33,744 nt of DNA from a virus (lineage: Duplodnaviria; Heunggongvirae; Uroviricota; Caudoviricetes), in IMG/VR virus record IMGVR_UViG_2778261543_000005; one strand, given 5' to 3'. Positions 262 to 10,663 of this stretch are shown here, one piece after another (within the stretch, counting starts at the first letter, position 1; every line of letters starts with the position of its first letter). A program made the translations under genes and the position numbers. The notes under the pieces are model-generated. The model saw only the letters and a list, made by a program, of their open reading frames with translations. It was not told the origin of the DNA and made no database searches.

Positions 262-592
262 AAAAAGGACGGTACCAGCCGGAAGCAAGGGTACAAACTG
301 GTACCGCCAGGACTACACACAGCATAAAGTTGTGGTGCCGGGTGCCTCCCGGTGCCTGGCGAAGGTTGCACACCAGGCGGGTGGGTATCCACAGAAGGTC
401 GACTGTCAGCCTCAACCTTAACCCGCGTGCGCTGAGCCGCATTCACCACAACGCTAAGGATTCTCTCTGGTTGAAAATACTTAGCTGTTATGTGCCTGCT
501 TTTAGCCACATCAGGCGAGGTGGACCTAGTTATTCCCCAACAACAAGGATTCGGTTAATCTGGTTATCCCCAACAACGCAAAAGGAAAAGAA

Positions 593-1027
593 ATGTCCGG
601 TAATATCTATACGCTGTACAAATCCCACTGTGAAAATGTTGGAAAGTATCGGGGCATTGAAATCAGTGGGGTAGTGTCATCAGTCGAAATAAGCAAAGTT
701 GAATCAAGGGCAACATTACTTACTCTTTTGGACCTTGTCTTACATGAGCACCGGAAGAAATTCGGCACTCCCTATAATCAGTTGAATGGGAAAAAGGCTC
801 TGGTTCACCTTATTCTGATGAAGCATCACTGGATGCCAAAACAGATTAATGAGATGAAATTTGATGAACTTCTTCTTTCAATTCAGGATGAACTCACACT
901 TGATAAAATAAGCGTAACCGCCCAGAAATTTTTAGATTATCGAGACTGGAGATCACAAATTCATCACTTTGATGATTTTGACGAAAATGAATGGGATCCT
1001 AATTTGTCTGCACAATATCTAAAGTAA
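593..1027 (+). CDS. Hypothetical protein (144 aa), AT-rich cargo gene
   Basis: ATG at 593 preceded by aaaggaaaag; clean ORF; composition visibly more AT-rich than the phage core. No motif recognised. Confidence 0.55.
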   Translation: MSGNIYTLYKSHCENVGKYRGIEISGVVSSVEISKVESRATLLTLLDLVLHEHRKKFGTPYNQLNGKKALVHLILMKHHWMPKQINEMKFDELLLSIQDELTLDKISVTAQKFLDYRDWRSQIHHFDDFDENEWDPNLSAQYLK

Positions 1028-1205
1028 CATCCTGTGATAAAACCGTGATTTCCTGATCCAGTTTTTTTAAGGAGTCTATTGTTTCCTGTCGATAAGACAG
1101 CACTTCACGAAGCTGGTTTATAGCTGCCAGCTTCTTTGTCATCCACTCATAAATTTCCTCATCTGTGTAGCCAGGCGCGACGATTTTGGGTTCTGTTTTG
1201 TGCAT
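999..1205 (-). CDS. Small hypothetical protein (68 aa), convergent with and overlapping the 3' end of 593-1027
   Basis: ATG at 1205 with a strong GAGGAGG Shine-Dalgarno 7 nt upstream on the minus strand; predicted coiled-coil-like sequence. Track ORF 999-1220 trimmed to this start. Confidence 0.35.
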   Translation of the reverse strand: MHKTEPKIVAPGYTDEEIYEWMTKKLAAINQLREVLSYRQETIDSLKKLDQEITVLSQDVTLDIVQTN

Positions 1206-1264
1206 TTCACACCTCCTCAAGTTATCAGTTACTTGTTGATGGGGACCAGATTGTTAAAGAGCTA

Positions 1265-1288
1265 AGCGTCCTGTAGGGCGCTTTTTTG
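1265..1288 (+). terminator. Intrinsic terminator-like hairpin (agcgtcc tgta gggcgct) followed by TTTTTT
   Basis: 7-bp stem with one G-U pair, then a T6 run on the plus strand. Confidence 0.4.
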
Positions 1289-1470
1289 TTGCTAACGAAT
1301 CATCCTGGACTTCATATGCCCCAGGCGGCTACTTCGTGGGTGTCCTGCCTGTTCGTTGTCATAACACCTTTAAGTTGTAATTTAGTTGTGGTTTTGAATA
1401 TTGTCAACAACTTTATGTGGTTTGAACGAGTAGCCAAGGAGTGCAAGGATTATCAAAAAAAGGAGGTTGT

Positions 1471-2361
1471 ATGGAAGACGCGCTTTACGCTTTTAATTAC
1501 ACACAGAACCGGGACAAGTTATTTGCTAACTTGATTAGCATCATTGATGGAATCATTGCAGATGGAGTTGTCCGTGAAGAGGAGGTTCTTTACTTAGATA
1601 CATGGTTACTTGAAGCAAAGCAGATTATCAATAATGGAGTTATAAAAAGTCTATCTGCTCGGGTGTCGGATATTCTTGCGGATGGAATAATCACATCAGA
1701 AGAACGTGATGACCTTAAAAATAGCCTTCTCCAAATACAGAGGGAAATTCTTGATATCCCTGAAATTGATTTTTACTCCAAGGATGTAGATGTCCATTTA
1801 CTTAATGGACTATGTAAAGGATTAATTGCTGATCGGAACTTAACTCAAGAAGAAATAAGATATCTTAATTGGTGGCTTGAGCAAAATGGAGCTTTGAAGA
1901 ACAACTACCCAGGAAAAAAACTTTATGCACTTGTAAAGGAAATTCTTAAAGATGGTGTTATTACTGAAGATGAGAGTTTAACTCTACATAAGGCATTAGT
2001 AGACTTCACAGGATGTGACTTGGAAAGTGGGGTGGTGGATGGTTTGGCGACCAGGCTGCCTATTGATGTAGGGGCTTCGATAGAGTTAGAGGGTAAAACC
2101 TATTGTCTTACAGGCACTTTTGTTGCAGGAAAGAGAGCCGTAGTTGAAAATTTGATTAAAAATGCTGGTGGGAACATCAGTAGTGGAATTACTCAAAAGT
2201 TGGATTTTTTAGTAATTGGGACGCTTTCCTCCCGTGATTGGAAATTCTCTAGTCACGGAAGGAAGATCGAAAAGGCTATATCTTATAGGGATGATAATGG
2301 TGCAAAACTTAAAATTATTTCTGAAGAAATGCTTTTCGATGCATTACCAAGTTCGCGATGA
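1471..2361 (+). CDS. Cargo protein with N-terminal TerB-like repeated (A/K)DG-x-I/V...EE...L motifs and a C-terminal BRCT-like domain
   Basis: ATG at 1471 preceded by aaaaaggagg. Four repeats (IADGVVREEEV, LADGIITSEER, IADRNLTQEEI, LKDGVITEDES). C-terminus (KTYCLTGTF...IKNAGG...LDFLVIGT) resembles the BRCT domain of NAD-dependent ligases. Domain calls are by eye. Confidence 0.6.
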   Translation: MEDALYAFNYTQNRDKLFANLISIIDGIIADGVVREEEVLYLDTWLLEAKQIINNGVIKSLSARVSDILADGIITSEERDDLKNSLLQIQREILDIPEIDFYSKDVDVHLLNGLCKGLIADRNLTQEEIRYLNWWLEQNGALKNNYPGKKLYALVKEILKDGVITEDESLTLHKALVDFTGCDLESGVVDGLATRLPIDVGASIELEGKTYCLTGTFVAGKRAVVENLIKNAGGNISSGITQKLDFLVIGTLSSRDWKFSSHGRKIEKAISYRDDNGAKLKIISEEMLFDALPSSR

Positions 2362-3030
2362 CCAGAATACCCTACCTATAACATGAATTCTGGCTCGTCT
2401 ATCTTCAAAGGTGAGTATTTCATCTGGGTACTCATCTTTGTTGAAGCTTCTAAGAATCAAGCCACCGTCAGGTAAGTTGATAAGTATTTTAACCCTTAGC
2501 AATACACCATCTCGTACGGCATAAAGATCGCCATCACGAATAGGAACGGTTTGAGAAATATCAACGGCAACAAGATCTCCATTATTGAGAACCGGTAATA
2601 AACTGTTCCCCCATATTTGTACGATCTTGGCATTAGATGCACATACGCCAGATTTTCTCAAATCTGCTCTTCTTAACGGAAACCAGTCAATAGCTGATTC
2701 AACTATTTCAGCCAGACATCCGTTACCTGCCGATAACTCGACATCTAAAACAGGAATGTTTACGAAAATATCGGGGTCTAATGCGGTGCTTTCTGCTTCT
2801 TTTACAACAAGATCAGGTATGGATGCGTTGTCTTCAATACCAAGTTGTAACCACTTTTGTGATACACCTAAAACTTTTGCAATTTCTTTAATTTTGCGCG
2901 GTTGTAGAGTTTCGCCATTCTCTATTTTGGCTACAGATTGTTGTGAAAGTCCAATTTTTTCAGCTAGTTGAGCTTGGCTCATGCCAGCTTTCTCTCTACC
3001 TATCTTTAATCGTTCTGCCAGTGTTTTCAC
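2344..3030 (-). CDS. Phage repressor, CI/LexA-like (N-terminal XRE-type HTH + C-terminal S24 peptidase domain)
   Basis: GTG start at 3030 with GAGGG upstream. N-terminus MSQAQLAEKIGLSQQSVAKIENGE is a typical HTH; C-terminal half matches the S24 self-cleaving fold. Divergent from a Cro-like gene. Confidence 0.85.
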   Translation of the reverse strand: MKTLAERLKIGREKAGMSQAQLAEKIGLSQQSVAKIENGETLQPRKIKEIAKVLGVSQKWLQLGIEDNASIPDLVVKEAESTALDPDIFVNIPVLDVELSAGNGCLAEIVESAIDWFPLRRADLRKSGVCASNAKIVQIWGNSLLPVLNNGDLVAVDISQTVPIRDGDLYAVRDGVLLRVKILINLPDGGLILRSFNKDEYPDEILTFEDRRARIHVIGRVFWSSRTW

Positions 3031-3165
3031 AACATATCCCTCTCTTTTTTGATGAGGTTACAACTTTATGTTTTAGCTTTCCAACACCTAAAAGTTGTGG
3101 TAAAAGTTGTTAATGTTGTATTCTTTCAGCTCGTAACAACTTAACTACCAAAAAAGGAGAAAGCT
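3031..3165. promoter_or_regulatory. Divergent promoter/operator region between repressor and cro-like genes with repeated ACAACTT / AAGTTGT half-sites
   Basis: Half-site copies at about 3060-3066, 3092-3098, 3104-3110 and 3135-3141 in both orientations, in the intergenic space between divergent regulators. Confidence 0.55.
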
Positions 3166-3414
3166 ATGACACCTGAGCAATTAGCCTTATCGGAGGCAAT
3201 CGCTCTGGCTGGTGGTCAATCAGAATTGGCTCGGAAGCTCACAGCCAGCAGCGGTCATTTAGTAAAGCAACAACATGTCTGGAACTGGTTGAACAGAGAA
3301 AAGCGTCCCCCTGCAAAGCTCTCGATATTCATTGAAAAGACCACTGGCATATCAAAAGAAAAATTACGTCCAGATATTTTTCAAAAGATTAAAGATTCAT
3401 CAGATGAAAAGTAA
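3166..3414 (+). CDS. Cro-like small HTH regulator (YdaS/Cro family-like)
   Basis: 82 aa, divergent from the repressor, RBS aaaaaggaga upstream; small HTH protein at the canonical cro position. Confidence 0.7.
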   Translation: MTPEQLALSEAIALAGGQSELARKLTASSGHLVKQQHVWNWLNREKRPPAKLSIFIEKTTGISKEKLRPDIFQKIKDSSDEK

Positions 3415-3436
3415 CCACAGTTTTAAGGAGATAGCC

Positions 3437-3994
3437 GTGGGCAAGCATCACTGGAAAATAGAAAAACAGCCTGAGTGGTACGTGAAAGCTGTCAGAAAAA
3501 CTATCGCGGCGTTGCCGGGGGGTTACGCTGAAGCCGCTGACTGGCTGGATGTAACAGAGAACGCTTTATTCAACCGCCTTCGTGCAGATGGCGATCAGAT
3601 TTTCCCGCTGGGATGGGCAATGGTTTTACAGCGTGCTGGTGGCACTCACTTCATTGCTGATGCTGTGGCGCAGTCTGCAAATGGCGTCTTTGTGTCTCTT
3701 CCTGACGTCGAGGATGTGGACAACGCCGATATTAACCAGCGTCTGCTGGAAGTCATTGAACAGATCGGCAGTTATTCAAAACAGATTCGTTCAGCAATCG
3801 AAGACGGTGTAGTGGAACCGCATGAGAAGACAGCAATTAACGACGAGCTGTATCTCTCAATTTCGAAGCTGCAGGAACATGCAGCACTTGTCTACAAAAT
3901 TTTTTGCATTTCAGAAAGTAATGACGCCCGCGAGTGTGCAGCTCCGGGCGTCGTGGCGTCGATTGCTTCTGGTTGTGGAGAAACTAACGCATGA
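3437..3994 (+). CDS. Hypothetical early protein at the cII/YdaT position
   Basis: In-frame GTG at 3437 with AGGAG 6 nt upstream (alternative ATG at 3404 lacks an RBS); stop overlaps the next ATG (ATGA). Function not recognised. Confidence 0.45.
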
Positions 3995-8681: not shown

Positions 8682-8705
8682 AATACGCCCCTGCATGGGC
8701 GTATT
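8682..8705. terminator. Perfect 9-bp stem hairpin (aatacgccc ctgcat gggcgtatt) between convergent Q and KAP NTPase genes; possible bidirectional terminator
   Basis: Exact inverted repeat with a 6-nt loop, flanked by A/T-rich sequence on both sides, lying between two convergent stop codons. Confidence 0.5.
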
Positions 8706-8707
8706 AT

Positions 8708-10039
8708 TTACTGGATGAATGACATTTGATTAATATATTTTATCAATAACTCTCTGGGTGTAGTACTCCAAAAATTTATGTGTTCATAATCAGTATAAAC
8801 ATTTGTGAATTTTTTAAGTTCTTCATCACTTTTAGGGGCAAATCGCTCATTAAGAGTAATACTGTCTTTAATTATTCCGAAGAATACAATGGATATTTCA
8901 GGGATTTGCGATCTTCTCTCATAAGAATAAGGTATTTCTTTTATGTTAAGCAGGTCTGCTAAATAAGATATAGATTCAGCGGTAATTTCTTGTTTTAGTT
9001 TTTCCTTGTTACCAAAGCAATGTATGAAGGCAGCTACGACAAAGATCATATTTATTAAAGGATCACTGCTTTTGTTCTCATCGTCGTTTAACAGTTGAAA
9101 AATGTTAAGATTGCGTGAAAATGTTTGTGTTTCACGTAATGATAAGTTGGTTCGTTGAATTAAATCACGGATAAAGTAACCTGATAATCTATTGATTTTA
9201 TTCAATAACCTTGTTTTTTCTACAAGGTAATCCCAATATATAACAGAGGCTTTACATACGTTGTGACCATTTATCAAACATGTATCTGGAAGCGTGATGG
9301 TATATTTTATAAACTTGTCAAGATACTTTTGTGAGTTAATGCTATAACCATAAATATGATTTATAGATGCTTTTAATTGTTCTGTGTTTGTAACTAAAAT
9401 AAAAAAGACATTATTGATGTCAAAAATGTGTTTTATTGTTTCAATGACATTTGTTGAAAAACTCGGCTTACATCGGTCTAATTCATCAATTATAATTACG
9501 ATTTTTTGATTTTTTGATATGCTTTCGATGCAGGATTTAAGTGAATTTATGTTTTTCTCTGAGTCCATATGGTCTTCAAGCAAATTTTCAATAGTCCCAT
9601 CTATTGCTGCATTGCTTGCTTTCTTCATCGCATCTTGGAATTCTTCGGCAACTTCACTAGCCTCCTGTCGTAAAAACCAACCTGCACCAGCTTTTAGTAC
9701 CGTTTTTAAACCAAAGCGAATTGCAGGAAGAGATCTCTTAATGAAGTGTTGTTTTTCTTCCTCAGGCAAAATGCTGGCAATTGCAGAGGTTATGAGAAGT
9801 AATGGAGATTCTGCATGATCCCCTTTAAAGGCATCAATATAAACAACTTTAGATTCAGTTTCTTGCTCAATAATGAGATTTTTCAGTTTGATACTAAATT
9901 CTGTTTTCCCTGTTCCCCATGCGCCGTCTATTACCAGTGGTGAAATGTCTGCCTCTGGTTTTAGCAACTTGATGATATTTTCAGCGATGTTTCTTCGTTG
10001 GAACTCGTCACGTTCAGTGAAAGATAGTGTATCTAACAT
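8708..10039 (-). CDS. KAP-family P-loop NTPase (443 aa), AT-rich cargo gene inserted antisense between Q and the late region
   Basis: Walker A VIDGAWGTGKTEF near the N-terminus, Walker B IVIIIDELDRC, overall KAP NTPase-like organisation; visibly AT-rich; opposite orientation to flanking phage genes. Confidence 0.8.
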   Translation of the reverse strand: MLDTLSFTERDEFQRRNIAENIIKLLKPEADISPLVIDGAWGTGKTEFSIKLKNLIIEQETESKVVYIDAFKGDHAESPLLLITSAIASILPEEEKQHFIKRSLPAIRFGLKTVLKAGAGWFLRQEASEVAEEFQDAMKKASNAAIDGTIENLLEDHMDSEKNINSLKSCIESISKNQKIVIIIDELDRCKPSFSTNVIETIKHIFDINNVFFILVTNTEQLKASINHIYGYSINSQKYLDKFIKYTITLPDTCLINGHNVCKASVIYWDYLVEKTRLLNKINRLSGYFIRDLIQRTNLSLRETQTFSRNLNIFQLLNDDENKSSDPLINMIFVVAAFIHCFGNKEKLKQEITAESISYLADLLNIKEIPYSYERRSQIPEISIVFFGIIKDSITLNERFAPKSDEELKKFTNVYTDYEHINFWSTTPRELLIKYINQMSFIQ

Positions 10040-10162
10040 AATATAAACCTATTAACTCCTACAGTAAAAAACGAATAATACGACTTTGGGATTAAAAATC
10101 ATTAACGCGGTCCGCAAAAATTCTTGTAATCTGTTAAGAGTGGTTACTTCGCCACACAGCTT

Positions 10163-10194
10163 AAACCCGCCGTCGAGCGGGTTTTGTCGTTTCT
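10163..10194 (+). terminator. Intrinsic terminator (aaacccgc cgtcga gcgggttt + T-rich tail) upstream of lysis genes; candidate tR'-like terminator downstream of the late promoter
   Basis: Perfect 8-bp GC-rich stem followed by ttgtcgtttct, about 140 nt upstream of the holin start. Confidence 0.5.
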
Positions 10195-10336
10195 GGGCTT
10201 TGGTATTCGTTGGGCTTGGTCTATCTAGCTCTTATCCATTGGCTCGGCTTCTTTTACGTTTCCGCTTCTGATTTGCGGTTCGTGGTACTCCCTCAATTTG
10301 CACCTCTTGTATCGGCGAGGTGAGAGATAACTACAA

Positions 10337-10663
10337 ATGCCTCATAACCCAAATACCTGGCTGGAGTTGGTCCAGAGCTGGTGGCGTGGAGACACACCGC
10401 TGGGCGCAGTGATTATGTCGATTGTTATGGCTGGTTTACGTATCGCCTATTTTGGCGGTGGTGGCGGTTGGAAGCGAAAAACACTCGAAATTCTACTCTG
10501 TGGCGCTCTGACGCTGACTTTTGCATCCGCTCTTGAGTATGTCGGATGGCCTAAATCACTATCTGTTGCCATTGGTGGTGGGGTGGGGCTGATCGGTGTC
10601 GATGCTATTCGTGGGGCTGCAATGCGAGTAATCGGTAACAAATTTGGTGGCTCTAAGGAGTAA
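10337..10663 (+). CDS. Holin (lambda S-like, three predicted transmembrane segments)
   Basis: 108 aa with hydrophobic stretches and a charged C-terminus; by-eye similarity to lambda S; immediately upstream of the endolysin. Confidence 0.75.
   Translation: MPHNPNTWLELVQSWWRGDTPLGAVIMSIVMAGLRIAYFGGGGGWKRKTLEILLCGALTLTFASALEYVGWPKSLSVAIGGGVGLIGVDAIRGAAMRVIGNKFGGSKE

What the first reader, a model, noticed from the sequence alone, without database searches (positions are those of the whole stretch)
593..2361. AT-rich cargo cassette next to the immunity region: unknown 144-aa protein, antisense small ORF, and a TerB-repeat plus BRCT protein
Just beyond the repressor gene lies an AT-rich block encoding an unrecognised 144-aa protein, a 68-aa convergent ORF with a strong GAGGAGG RBS overlapping its 3' end, and a 297-aa protein combining four TerB-like (A/K)DG...EE...L repeats with a C-terminal BRCT-like domain. 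BRCT domains bind phosphorylated or nicked DNA ends, and the TerB-like repeats would be ligand-binding by analogy with tellurite-resistance TerB, so this architecture could be a sensor of DNA damage or phage DNA. The 3' end of the BRCT gene overlaps the repressor 3' end convergently.
Basis: partly seen in the sequence, partly recalled or inferred. Interest (0 to 1): 0.7.

Follow-up and report, generated by a model that had tools for sequence, protein, structure and literature searches.

The report
Prophage repressor-linked BRCT DNA-end-binding protein
Next to the repressor of this E. coli prophage lies a real but uncharacterised gene for an enzyme-free protein with a BRCT domain, which in other proteins binds DNA ends and nicks; relatives ride in the repressor's transcription unit of many unrelated temperate phages, so it is probably made in the dormant state, possibly to fend off other phages.

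Summary
All three ORFs, the GAGGAGG RBS, both 3' overlaps and the C-terminal BRCT domain are real. The interpretation needs revision in three ways.

1. This is not one cassette. ECs1072 and the 68-aa ORF belong to the SfIV-like left arm. The BRCT gene belongs to the immunity module OL–BRCT–cI–cro, kept together and co-diverging in 80/80 viral contigs.
2. "TerB" holds only at motif level. The N-terminus is a tandem duplication of an ~85-aa four-helix bundle.
3. The BRCT gene's promoter sits inside OL, back-to-back with PL. The layout matches lambda PR/PRM.

Homologues lie directly downstream of unrelated repressor types in Vibrio phage K139 (annotated lysogenic operon cI-orf2-glo-int), Pseudomonas phage phi1 and several metagenomic phages. 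The gene is dispensable: one lineage has an internal deletion and another a nonsense codon.

Best reading (inferred, about 0.4): a lysogen-expressed, non-enzymatic binder of 5'-phosphate DNA ends or nicks, occupying the Rex/BstA slot and acting in superinfection exclusion or defence. No experiment exists for this protein or its homologues.

Interest is moderate. It is a widespread, untested class of lysogeny-module protein.

The parts
593..1027 (+). ECs1072-family gene (144 aa), function unknown. It belongs to the SfIV-like left-arm segment, not to the immunity module.
   Evidence: ORF. NF033230 at 157.8 bits and phrog_5286 at E 1.5e-90. Present in only 11 of 80 BRCT-bearing viral loci. No PDB or PADLOC hit.
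999..1205 (-). 68-aa ORF (orf68), the first gene downstream of the inferred PL. It is convergent with ECs1072 and overlaps it by 29 nt.
   Evidence: GAGGAGG RBS. phrog_1744 full length, E 6e-35. RefSeq WP_000549623.1. Co-occurs with ECs1072.
1251..1262 (-). Exact rrn-type boxA-like sequence GCTCTTTAACAA in the PL leader.
   Evidence: Single exact match in the window. The resemblance to boxA is from my own knowledge.
1264..1283 (.). 8-bp GC-rich hairpin. It reads as an intrinsic terminator on the + strand (followed by TTTTTTG). On the - strand it is a stem-loop just 5' of the boxA-like sequence.
   Evidence: terminator scan; sequence.
1364..1378 (.). Operator OL-a, ACACCTTTAAGTTGT, covering the inferred PL start site.
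   Evidence: The palindrome ACAMC-N5-GKTGT occurs only here and at 3084-3098 in OR. The chance expectation is 0.11, and 0 of 100 shuffles reach 2 matches. The block is almost invariant in 16 diverged loci, the two degenerate half-site positions being the only variable columns.
1379..1407 (-). Inferred early-left promoter PL: -35 TTGACA at 1407-1402, 17-nt spacer, -10 TAAATT at 1384-1379.
   Evidence: Matches 10 of 12 consensus positions. Both hexamers are invariant and the spacer varies across 16 loci.
1407..1421 (.). Operator OL-b, ACAACTTTATGTGGT, lying between the -35 hexamers of PL and the BRCT promoter.
   Evidence: It shares the 12-mer ACAACTTTATGT with OR at 3060-3071. It is invariant across the aligned loci.
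1422..1450 (+). Inferred promoter of the BRCT gene: -35 TTGAAC at 1422-1427, 17-nt variable spacer ending in TGC, -10 AAGGAT at 1445-1450.
   Evidence: The -35 region and the TGnAAGGAT block are highly conserved across loci as diverged as 56% protein identity, with only scattered substitutions (the sixth -35 base varies and two loci depart in the TGn/-10 block), while the spacer between them varies freely. The consensus scan did not call it, so it is weak. Its function is inferred.
1471..2361 (+). BRCT-protein gene (296 aa). Helical unit 1 spans codons 8-96 (nt 1492-1758). Helical unit 2 spans codons 100-186 (nt 1768-2028). The BRCT domain spans codons 206-291 (nt 2086-2343).
2344..3030 (-). 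cI-type repressor (HTH_3 + Peptidase_S24, 228 aa). Its last 18 nt overlap the end of the BRCT gene.
   Evidence: Pfam; coordinates.
3031..3165 (.). OR region, with operators including 3060-3074 and 3084-3098.
3166..3414 (+). cro-position gene (YdaS family HTH, 82 aa). It co-diverges with cI and the BRCT gene.

Best explanation
**What it is (shown).** The window is an SfV/SfIV-like lambdoid prophage of E. coli. The finding covers two unrelated mosaic pieces.
- **Piece 1** is the outer end of the early-left arm: orf68, with the ECs1072 gene on the opposite strand.
- **Piece 2** is part of the immunity module OL/PL – BRCT gene – cI – OR – cro.

**The protein (shown).** It has no enzymatic domain. 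It consists of two tandem copies of an ~85-residue four-helix bundle. Each copy carries two acidic 'ADG-x5-E' helix-loop-helix motifs, which are TerB-like only at motif level. These are followed by one BRCT domain that keeps the Thr-Gly / Arg / Lys phosphate-pocket residues (T214, G215, R222, K265). These align with the corresponding residues of the RFC1 and LigA BRCT domains.

**How it works (inferred).**
1. The gene is transcribed from a weak promoter built into OL, back-to-back with PL. An operator abuts its -35 hexamer, as OR2 abuts lambda PRM. The resident repressor would then shut PL and keep, or switch, the BRCT gene on in the lysogen. In other phages the same outcome comes from placing the gene directly behind the repressor in the lysogenic operon.
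2. In the lysogen the protein binds 5'-phosphorylated DNA ends, nicks or gaps through its BRCT pocket. The paired acidic bundles act as a ligand- or partner-sensing and oligomerising part.
3. I commit to superinfection exclusion or defence against incoming or replicating foreign phage DNA as the purpose. This is the job of other genes in this slot, such as lambda rexAB and BTP1 bstA.
For: **Module membership**
- BRCT, cI and cro are present together in 80 of 80 IMG/VR loci. They diverge in parallel (100% down to 69%, 72% and 62-67%), with a few loci showing steeper cI divergence (to about 50%). ECs1072 and orf68 are present in only 11-12 of those loci.
- The SfIV homology ends at window ~1359.

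**Protein**
-. T214, G215, R222 and K265 are at least 90% conserved in 58 diverse homologues.
- The isolated RFC1 BRCT domain binds recessed 5'-phosphate DNA with Kd ~10 nM (PMC9293004).

**Lysogenic expression by context**
- Vibrio phage K139 carries an annotated, TSS-mapped lysogenic operon PL->cI-orf2(BRCT)-glo-int.
- Pseudomonas phage phi1 has repressor->BRCT.
- Metagenomic phages show the same order: L006, L160, L161 and L163, L171 cI-x-BRCT-int, L173 with a P2/186-type CI->BRCT->x->int, and L175.
- The BRCT proteins are 28-45% identical to each other. The adjacent repressors are barely related or unrelated.

**Promoter and operators**
-.

**Link to defence**
- The only PADLOC hit is PDC-S48, a defence-island candidate. 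PDC-S48 is a DEDDh exonuclease fused to this same repeat+BRCT module.

**Accessory status**
- One lineage carries an internal deletion with OL and the promoter retained (24 E. coli records share that pattern; one was inspected). Another lineage carries a nonsense codon.
- Elsewhere selection is purifying: dN is 0.14-0.25 with dS saturated.
Against: - There is no effector domain and no partner gene in this module.
- No validated defence model in PADLOC matches.
- In K139 the record assigns exclusion to glo, not to orf2.
- Distant homologues sit at syntenic, non-island chromosomal positions in Pseudohongiella and elsewhere. That is atypical for defence genes and hints at a housekeeping role in DNA metabolism.
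- The consensus scan did not call the BRCT promoter. Its activation by cI is argued from geometry only.
- No terminator lies between the convergent BRCT and cI genes. Co-expression in the lysogen would therefore cause transcriptional collision.
- DNA binding was not tested.
Confidence: 0.4

Rival explanations
1. Modulator of the lysis-lysogeny switch. The BRCT protein senses DNA damage (nicks, gaps, ends). It then tunes prophage induction, for example by affecting RecA*-dependent repressor cleavage or repressor stability, as Hex does in phage 434 and as proposed for RexA.
For: It is tightly and recurrently linked to repressor genes. BRCT domains are classic DNA-damage modules. A 2026 preprint on Roseobacter prophages reads cI/BRCT modules as DNA-damage-responsive regulators, from genomics only (PMC13345283). 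434 Hex is a precedent for an immunity-region protein of this kind (PMC3564112, listed).
Against: The adjacent repressors belong to different families: self-cleaving HTH+S24, P2/186-type PF07022+PF16452, and HTH only. A mechanism tied to S24 autocleavage therefore cannot be general. The gene is lost by deletion or nonsense mutation while cI, cro and the operators stay intact. The BRCT proteins evolve more slowly than, and independently of, the repressors.
Confidence: 0.2
2. Host-benefit DNA-maintenance factor (lysogenic conversion). A cellular nick- or gap-binding adaptor was co-opted by phages. It helps the lysogen tolerate DNA damage or stabilises replication and repair intermediates, for example by recruiting or shielding LigA substrates.
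For: Homologues are core-like chromosomal genes in conserved synteny in many Pseudohongiella, SAR86 and other genomes. The repeat+BRCT module is fused to DEDDh exonucleases, HhH modules and a giant SF1 helicase-nuclease. The closest BRCT sequences are those of LigA and RFC1.
Against: No repair genes are linked to it in phages. Selection for such a function in prophages of many unrelated types is less obvious than selection for exclusion. The exonuclease-fused relatives were flagged by association with defence islands (PADLOC PDC-S48).
Confidence: 0.18
3. The gene acts mainly through its transcription. Convergent, terminator-less transcription from the OL-embedded promoter runs antisense into cI. 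This helps to shut off repressor synthesis after derepression, and the protein is secondary.
For: The 3' ends overlap by 8-18 nt and no terminator lies between the genes, in all 80 viral loci of this clade. The deletion derivative keeps the promoter, the RBS and the 3' end.
Against: The ORF is intact in 78 of 80 loci and under strong purifying selection. In at least nine other phage lineages the gene is co-directional with the repressor, so antisense action cannot be the conserved function.
Confidence: 0.07
4. Counter-defence protein. It acts as a decoy or sponge, with the BRCT or acidic bundles binding a nucleotide signal, or as a LigA-like decoy. This would protect the phage or prophage from host immune systems.
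For: Some BRCT domains bind NAD+ or poly(ADP-ribose) (PMC10386641; PMC6334254 listed). The protein has no enzymatic domain, as is typical of sponges.
Against: Placement in the lysogenic operon, rather than among early lytic genes, argues against it. No similarity to known sponges was seen. Chromosomal homologues exist in non-phage contexts.
Confidence: 0.07

Closest known systems
Vibrio cholerae phage K139 orf2 (also in Kappa, VPUSM 8, 919TP, VcP032)
   Same: A true homologue: 32.6% identity over 95% of the protein, 301 aa, with the same two-bundle + BRCT architecture. It is encoded in the repressor's transcription unit. The GenBank record annotates PL as the promoter of the lysogenic operon, with a mapped start site, followed by cI-orf2-glo-int.
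   Different: K139 is a P2-like phage with an unrelated repressor. Its gene is co-directional with cI rather than convergent. Its function is also unknown, and the record assigns exclusion to the neighbouring glo gene.
Lambda RexAB, Salmonella phage BTP1 BstA and 434 Hex (immunity-region accessory genes)
   Same: They occupy the same genomic slot, between OL/PL and cI or just behind cI, and follow the same logic of expression with the repressor in the lysogen. Some relatives here (L160, L162) even pair the BRCT gene with a small membrane Zn-ribbon protein, reminiscent of RexA/RexB. The properties of Rex and BstA are from my own knowledge. Hex is from PMC3564112.
   Different: There is no sequence or fold relationship. 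PADLOC returns no Rex or BstA hit. The window's module has no membrane partner. This resemblance is in how it may work, not in family membership.
PADLOC PDC-S48 (phage-defence candidate; DEDDh exonuclease + repeat + BRCT)
   Same: It shares the C-terminal non-catalytic module: one helical unit plus BRCT. The window protein's residues 119-251 match profile positions 239-377 of 411, at E 2.4e-7. Fusion proteins P0221 and P0189 match the model over nearly its full length or its N-terminal ~260 positions.
   Different: The window protein lacks the N-terminal DEDDh exonuclease altogether and has a second helical unit instead. To my knowledge PDC-S48 is itself only a computational candidate.
BRCT domains of NAD-dependent DNA ligase LigA and of RFC1 (p140)
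   Different: No ligase, HhH or AAA+ modules are present. There is an 8-residue insertion with an invariant D256-W257 ('SRDW') before helix alpha2. Some sources annotate the protein as 'NAD-dependent DNA ligase', which is wrong.
TerB domain (PF05099), and the TerB-like proteins of the Shango, Bunzi and Dionysus defence systems
   Same: It shares the acidic helix-loop-helix motif (h-x-ADG-x5-E-x3-L). TerB is the top Pfam hit for the family consensus, and 13 of 58 members hit it. TerB domains occur in validated defence systems, where their role is unknown (bioRxiv 10.1101/2025.09.30.679545).

Membership tests
BRCT domain superfamily (PF00533) | Sequence match above the curated Pfam gathering score. 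| tested here: met
   28.8 bits against a gathering score of 21.3, over residues 216-300 of the 306-aa ORF. 56 of 58 family members hit BRCT.
BRCT domain superfamily (PF00533) | A beta-alpha-beta-beta-alpha-beta-alpha fold that superposes on solved BRCT domains. | tested here: met
   [not shown]
BRCT domain superfamily (PF00533) | Phosphate-binding pocket: Ser/Thr-Gly in the beta1-alpha1 loop and Lys at the N-terminus of alpha2. | tested here: met
   T214, G215, R222 and K265 are at least 90% conserved in 58 homologues. TG and R align with the RFC1 TG...R residues. The pocket definition is from PMC10386641. Binding itself was not tested.
TerB family (PF05099) | Sequence match above the Pfam gathering score over the ~118-position domain. 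| tested here: not met
   The window protein has no hit at E<=1. The family consensus scores 20.7 bits, below 24.4, over profile positions 9-39 only. 13 of 58 members hit weakly, with a best E of 9.5e-5.
TerB family (PF05099) | Structural similarity to a solved TerB domain. | tested here: inconclusive
   [not shown]
PADLOC PDC-S48 candidate defence protein | N-terminal DEDDh (RNase T / DnaQ-like) exonuclease fused to the repeat+BRCT module. | tested here: not met
   Only profile positions 239-377 of 411 are matched. No RNase_T or DEDDh hit was found for the window protein. True members P0221, P0189 and P0227 do have the exonuclease.
Lambdoid immunity (imm) module | cI-type repressor and cro flanked by OR and OL operator clusters of one specificity, with PL at OL. 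The module is inherited as a mosaic block. | tested here: met
   The same palindromic operator occurs at 1364-1378 and 3084-3098 only. A 12-mer is shared between 1407-1418 and 3060-3071. A PL-like promoter is present. The SfIV mosaic boundary lies at ~1359. BRCT-cI-cro occur together in 80 of 80 loci. Operator binding was not tested.
Validated anti-phage systems of the cI-adjacent slot (RexAB, BstA) and any other PADLOC system | Sequence homology to a component of a validated system. | tested here: not met
   A PADLOC scan at E<=1 returned only the partial PDC-S48 hit.
Prophage lysogenic-conversion (moron-type) accessory gene | Expressed from the prophage in the lysogen and dispensable for the phage life cycle. 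| tested here: inconclusive
   Dispensability is supported by the internal deletion in L178 and a nonsense codon in L107 and L108. Expression is inferred from the K139 lysogenic-operon annotation and from co-directional placement behind repressors. No transcript data are available for this prophage.

The most novel reading that the evidence does not exclude
The tandem acidic four-helix-bundle + BRCT proteins may form a widespread, so far unrecognised class of lysogeny-operon proteins. They would work as an enzyme-free, single-protein exclusion or immunity device. The BRCT pocket would capture 5'-phosphorylated ends, nicks or gaps of incoming or replicating foreign DNA, and the bundles would sense a ligand or partner. 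In this E. coli phage the gene would be driven by a second, PRM-like, repressor-activated promoter hidden inside OL. That would make OL a bidirectional switch like OR.
Probability: 0.25. Interest if true: 0.75.

Novelty: new variant of a known kind. Interest (0 to 1): 0.5.

Why it matters
Genes carried next to prophage repressors have repeatedly turned out to be immunity or exclusion systems, such as Rex and BstA, or switch modulators, such as Hex.

This family is found behind the repressors of lambda-like, P2-like and D3-like phages of Escherichia, Vibrio and Pseudomonas, at the regulatory region of a Sulfurimonas phage (no repressor gene seen there), and, per a 2026 preprint, in Roseobacter prophages. 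It also has many chromosomal and enzyme-fused relatives. No member has a known function.

If it binds DNA ends or nicks in lysogens, three things would follow:
- It would be the first functional role for a stand-alone bacterial or phage BRCT protein.
- It would be a new enzyme-free mode of exclusion or damage sensing.
- It would give a handle on what the PADLOC candidate PDC-S48 and TerB-like motifs do.

The predicted repressor-flanked divergent promoter pair in OL is also directly testable. It would extend the lambda OR paradigm to OL.

Tried and rejected
- **Single cassette.** Rejected by co-occurrence (11-12 of 80 against 80 of 80) and by the SfIV mosaic boundary.
- **'NAD-dependent DNA ligase' or 'DNA polymerase III epsilon', as some sources name it.** Rejected. 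Only the BRCT part matches those models, far below their cut-offs.
- **Known RNA genes in the region.** None found by ARAGORN or by Rfam at gathering scores.
- **Structured RNA in the PL leader.** Folding gave z = 0.18, no better than shuffles. The candidate stem in the conserved 1318-1355 element is broken in relatives.
- **Broad alignment as a locus query.** The 58-sequence alignment had no stretch conserved enough for the search for related loci. An 8-sequence alignment worked.
- **P0122 in viral contigs.** No relatives found.
- **Primary K139 papers.** Nesper 1999 and Kapfhammer 2002 are not held. What was tested for orf2 is therefore unknown to me. The RFC1 BRCT-DNA paper was also not held.
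- **Literature searches.** Five searches found no experimental study of a phage BRCT protein, and none mention PDC-S48.
- **PDB sequence searches for ECs1072 and orf68.** Nothing useful.
- **dN/dS.** It could be computed only for the closest pair, and that partner is a pseudogene. dS is saturated for all other pairs.
Full report
**1. Observation**

The features are all present.
- ECs1072-family ORF: 593-1027 (+), 144 aa.
- orf68: 999-1205 (-), 68 aa, preceded by GAGGAGG-N6-ATG. It overlaps the ECs1072 3' end by 29 nt.
- BRCT ORF: the longest ORF begins at a GTG at 1441. The RBS AAGGAGG (1460-1466), the RefSeq annotation and an ATG conserved in 16 aligned relatives put the start at 1471. The protein is therefore 296 aa.
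- The BRCT gene's last 18 nt overlap the convergent repressor gene at 2344-3030.
- GC is 0.39 over 593-2361, against 0.53 to the right. The low GC continues through cI and cro to about 3414.

All three proteins belong to established but function-unknown families. These are NF033230 and phrog_5286 (ECs1072), phrog_1744 (orf68) and phrog_3989 (BRCT protein).

**2. Where it sits, and why it is not one cassette**

The window is an SfV/SfIV/CPS-53-like lambdoid prophage of E. coli. In strain JB2 it is integrated at a tRNA-Thr gene.

Nucleotide homology to Shigella phage SfIV covers ECs1072 and orf68. It stops at window ~1359. SfIV then has its own cI and no BRCT gene.

In 80 IMG/VR contigs that encode a relative at 69% identity or more:
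- The BRCT gene, the cI gene and the cro-position gene are present together in 80 of 80.
- They diverge in parallel: 100% down to 69%, 72% and 62-67%, with a few loci showing steeper cI divergence (to about 50%).
- ECs1072 and orf68 are present in only 11 and 12.

The same convergent BRCT/cI overlap is kept in Citrobacter, Serratia, Providencia and Rosenbergiella prophages, and in an Aeromonadaceae genome with a barely detectable cI relative.

The BRCT gene is a fixed third member of one immunity module.

**3. The protein**

*BRCT domain.*
- Pfam BRCT is above its gathering score (28.8 against 21.3 bits).
- A profile of 58 diverse homologues finds the RFC1 BRCT (E 3.6e-8) and LigA BRCT domains in the PDB.
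- AlphaFold2 on that alignment gives pLDDT 92.4 and pTM 0.88. The model shows helices 10-93 and 106-180, then a BRCT fold at 210-291.
- T214, G215, R222 and K265 are at least 90% conserved. They align with the TG...R residues of RFC1 and fit the Ser/Thr-Gly plus Lys phosphate pocket described for BRCT domains (PMC10386641).
- The isolated RFC1 BRCT domain binds recessed 5'-phosphate DNA with Kd ~10 nM (PMC9293004).

*N-terminal region.*
- It is a tandem duplication. Unit 1 against unit 2 by hhalign gives probability 99.7% and E 1e-26.
- Each ~85-residue unit is a four-helix bundle carrying two 'ADG-x5-E-x3-L' motifs.

*TerB test.*
- TerB is supported at motif level only.
- The window protein has no TerB hit.
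- 13 of 58 relatives hit PF05099 at E<=1, with a best E of 9.5e-5.
- The consensus of unit 2 gives TerB as its top hit. The score is 20.7 bits, below the gathering score of 24.4, over profile positions 9-39 of 118.

*Family size and architectures.*
- The family is large. An exhaustive search gave 1,596 50%-identity clusters at E<=1e-10 and 137 at E<=1e-30.
- There is a two-bundle form (~295 aa) and a one-bundle form (~210 aa).
- There are fusions to DEDDh exonucleases, to HhH+BRCT, and to a 2,042-aa SF1 helicase/REase.
- The only PADLOC hit, PDC-S48, is the exonuclease-fused form. The window protein matches only its non-catalytic C-terminal part.

**4. Context in other phages**

This is the most informative result. 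The table lists the lineages where the gene lies co-directionally behind a repressor.

| Phage or locus | Gene order |
|---|---|
| Vibrio phage K139 and relatives (P2-like) | PL -> cI - orf2 (BRCT homologue, 32.6% id, 95% coverage) - glo - int. The record annotates PL as the lysogenic promoter with a mapped start. |
| Pseudomonas phage phi1 (Detrevirus) | repressor -> BRCT, 30-nt gap |
| L006 (45%-identical homologue) | S24 cI -> BRCT, 57-nt gap |
| L160 | S24 cI -> Zn-ribbon membrane protein -> BRCT |
| L163 / L164 | S24 cI -> 132-aa protein -> BRCT |
| L161 | HTH protein -> 168-aa protein -> BRCT |
| L171 | S24 cI -> 101-aa protein -> BRCT -> int |
| L173 | P2/186-type CI (PF07022 + PF16452) -> BRCT -> 290-aa protein -> int |
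| L175 | S24 protein -> BRCT |

The BRCT proteins of these phages are 28-45% identical to each other. Their repressors are barely related or unrelated.

The association is therefore with the lysogenic transcription unit, not with one repressor lineage.

More distant homologues (30-40%) in Pseudohongiella, SAR86, Shewanella and others lie in conserved chromosomal, non-phage contexts.

**5. Regulatory anatomy in the window**

The region upstream of the BRCT gene is OL.

*Operators.*
- The palindrome ACA(A/C)C-N5-G(G/T)TGT occurs exactly twice in 33.7 kb, at 1364-1378 and at 3084-3098 in OR. The chance expectation is 0.11, and 0 of 100 shuffles reach two matches.
- A second site, ACAACTTTATGTGGT at 1407-1421, shares a 12-mer with OR at 3060-3071.

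*PL.*
- A 10-of-12 sigma-70 promoter points left: -35 at 1407-1402, -10 at 1384-1379.
- In 16 loci as diverged as 56% protein identity, both hexamers are invariant and the two operator blocks almost so (only the degenerate half-site positions vary), while the 12-13-nt stretch between the two conserved blocks varies.

*The BRCT promoter (inferred).*
- On the other side, TTGA(A/T)(C/T) at 1422-1427, a variable 17-nt spacer and a highly conserved TG(C/T)AAGGAT at 1442-1450 (departing in two of the sixteen loci) form a weak, extended -10 promoter for the BRCT gene.
- The inferred starts of PL (~1372) and of this promoter (~1457) are ~85 bp apart.
- Operator 1407-1421 fills the gap between the two -35 hexamers.
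- From my own knowledge, this is the layout of lambda PR/PRM around OR2, whose starts are 82 bp apart.

I infer that the repressor bound at OL represses PL and permits or activates BRCT transcription. That would give the same lysogenic expression that other phages obtain by operon placement. This step is inference, because no transcript data exist.

One caveat applies. No terminator separates the convergent BRCT and cI genes.

**6. Selection and dispensability**

- 78 of 80 viral copies are intact. Two (L107, L108) share a nonsense codon at position 242.
- dN between diverged copies is 0.14-0.25, with dS saturated.
- 48 of 5,426 complete E. coli genomes carry the whole OL-BRCT-cI-OR block.
- A further 24 records match only from window ~2218 rightward, at ~82% identity.
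- The one of these that I inspected keeps OL, PL, the BRCT promoter, the RBS, the first five codons and the last ~40 codons. The rest of the gene is deleted.

The gene is thus maintained by selection but is not needed for the immunity switch itself. It is an accessory gene.

**7. Mechanism and rivals**

*Shown.*
- Domain architecture.
- Absence of any catalytic domain.
- A conserved phosphate pocket.
- Membership of the immunity module.
- Recurrent placement in lysogenic operons.
- Dispensability.

*Inferred.*
- Expression in the lysogen.
- Binding of 5'-P ends, nicks or gaps.
- The biological purpose.

*Best reading.* I commit to superinfection exclusion or defence, at about 0.4. Four points favour it:
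- The slot and its expression logic are those of rexAB and bstA.
- The function must be independent of repressor type and of phage type.
- The enzyme-fused relatives were picked up as defence-island candidates.
- Some relatives pair the gene with a small membrane protein.

*Rivals.*
- **Modulator of induction or the switch (0.2).** It is weakened by the diversity of repressor families and by gene loss with an intact switch.
- **Host DNA-maintenance or lysogenic-conversion factor (0.18).** It is favoured by the core-like chromosomal homologues.
- **Antisense control of cI by convergent transcription (0.07).** It cannot be the conserved function, because most lineages are co-directional.
- **Counter-defence decoy or sponge (0.07).**

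**8. Comparison with known systems**

- The protein is a bona fide BRCT protein. All three tested features are met.
- It is not a demonstrable TerB-family member.
- It is not a PDC-S48 member, because it has no exonuclease.
- It is not related to Rex, BstA or any validated PADLOC system.
- Its closest characterised-in-context relative is K139 orf2, whose function is unknown. I could not access the primary K139 papers.
- A 2026 preprint notes cI/BRCT modules in Roseobacter prophages and assumes DNA-damage sensing, without experiments (PMC13345283).
- TerB-like proteins occur in the validated Shango, Bunzi and Dionysus systems, with an unknown role.

**9. Verdict**

This is a real, conserved and already annotated gene ('BRCT domain-containing protein'). 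What is new here is:
- its assignment to the immunity module,
- its recurrence in the lysogenic operons of unrelated temperate phages,
- its tandem-bundle architecture,
- the lambda-OR-like divergent promoter arrangement in OL.

Function remains untested. I rate the novelty as a new variant of a known kind (an immunity-region accessory gene) and the interest as 0.5.

Noticed in passing
window 1251-1283 (- strand): The PL leader carries an 8-bp GC-rich hairpin (1283-1264) followed at once by an exact rrn-type boxA sequence, GCTCTTTAACAA (1262-1251), upstream of orf68. It looks like a nutL- or rrn-style antitermination site. On the + strand the same hairpin plus a T-run reads as a terminator for the ECs1072 transcript. 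No second copy lies downstream of PR.
   Followed up: partly
window 1318-1355: A ~35-nt element (GGCGGCTACTTCGTGGG(C/T)GTCCTGCCTGTTCG) just downstream of the inferred PL start is conserved in about two thirds of the aligned relatives and replaced by unrelated sequence in the rest. Most of the loci that keep it lack orf68 and ECs1072. It does not fold better than shuffles, and its candidate stem lacks covariation.
   Followed up: partly
window 557-576 and 1233-1252: A 20-nt inverted repeat (75% complementary; AATCTGGTTATCCCCAACAA / TTGTTGATGGGGACCAGATT) lies just upstream of both start codons of the convergent ECs1072/orf68 pair. It could be a shared regulatory site or chance.
   Followed up: no
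window 3332-3994 (YmfL / CP76 cII-like gene) and BRCT protein residues 58-92: The helical repeat of the BRCT protein weakly matches the C-terminal part of YmfL/CP76-type cII regulators: NF041471 at E 1.6e-4, phrog_6499 at E 6e-5, and PF06892 in 5 of 58 family members. The same 'DG-x5-E' helix-loop-helix motif seems to occur in the prophage's own cII-like protein.
   Followed up: no
[not shown]
   Followed up: partly
L160 3514-3879, L162 3486-3968; L161 3472-3978, L163 2450-2848: In distant phages the one-bundle BRCT gene is immediately preceded by one of two gene types. One is a small membrane protein with a zinc ribbon (two lineages). The other is a conserved 132-168-aa protein of unknown family sharing the motif 'NPEL...GEL...LG..GG...YLA..QGLRG.DL' (two lineages). 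These are possible partner proteins, and both are absent from the window.
   Followed up: partly
window ~8686-10413 (from L001 16287-18014, - strand); L167 4078-5528: A cluster of a TIGR04255-family protein plus two small hypothetical genes sits between the Q antiterminator and the holin in this prophage. A TIGR04255 protein plus two small genes also follows the BRCT and thermonuclease genes in Sulfurimonas phage SNW-1. It may be another mobile accessory module.
   Followed up: no
source names; phage records Kappa kp3, phi1, PG1, SNW-1: Several public records name members of this family 'NAD-dependent DNA ligase' or 'DNA polymerase'. Only the BRCT domain matches those enzymes. These are annotation errors that propagate.
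   Followed up: yes
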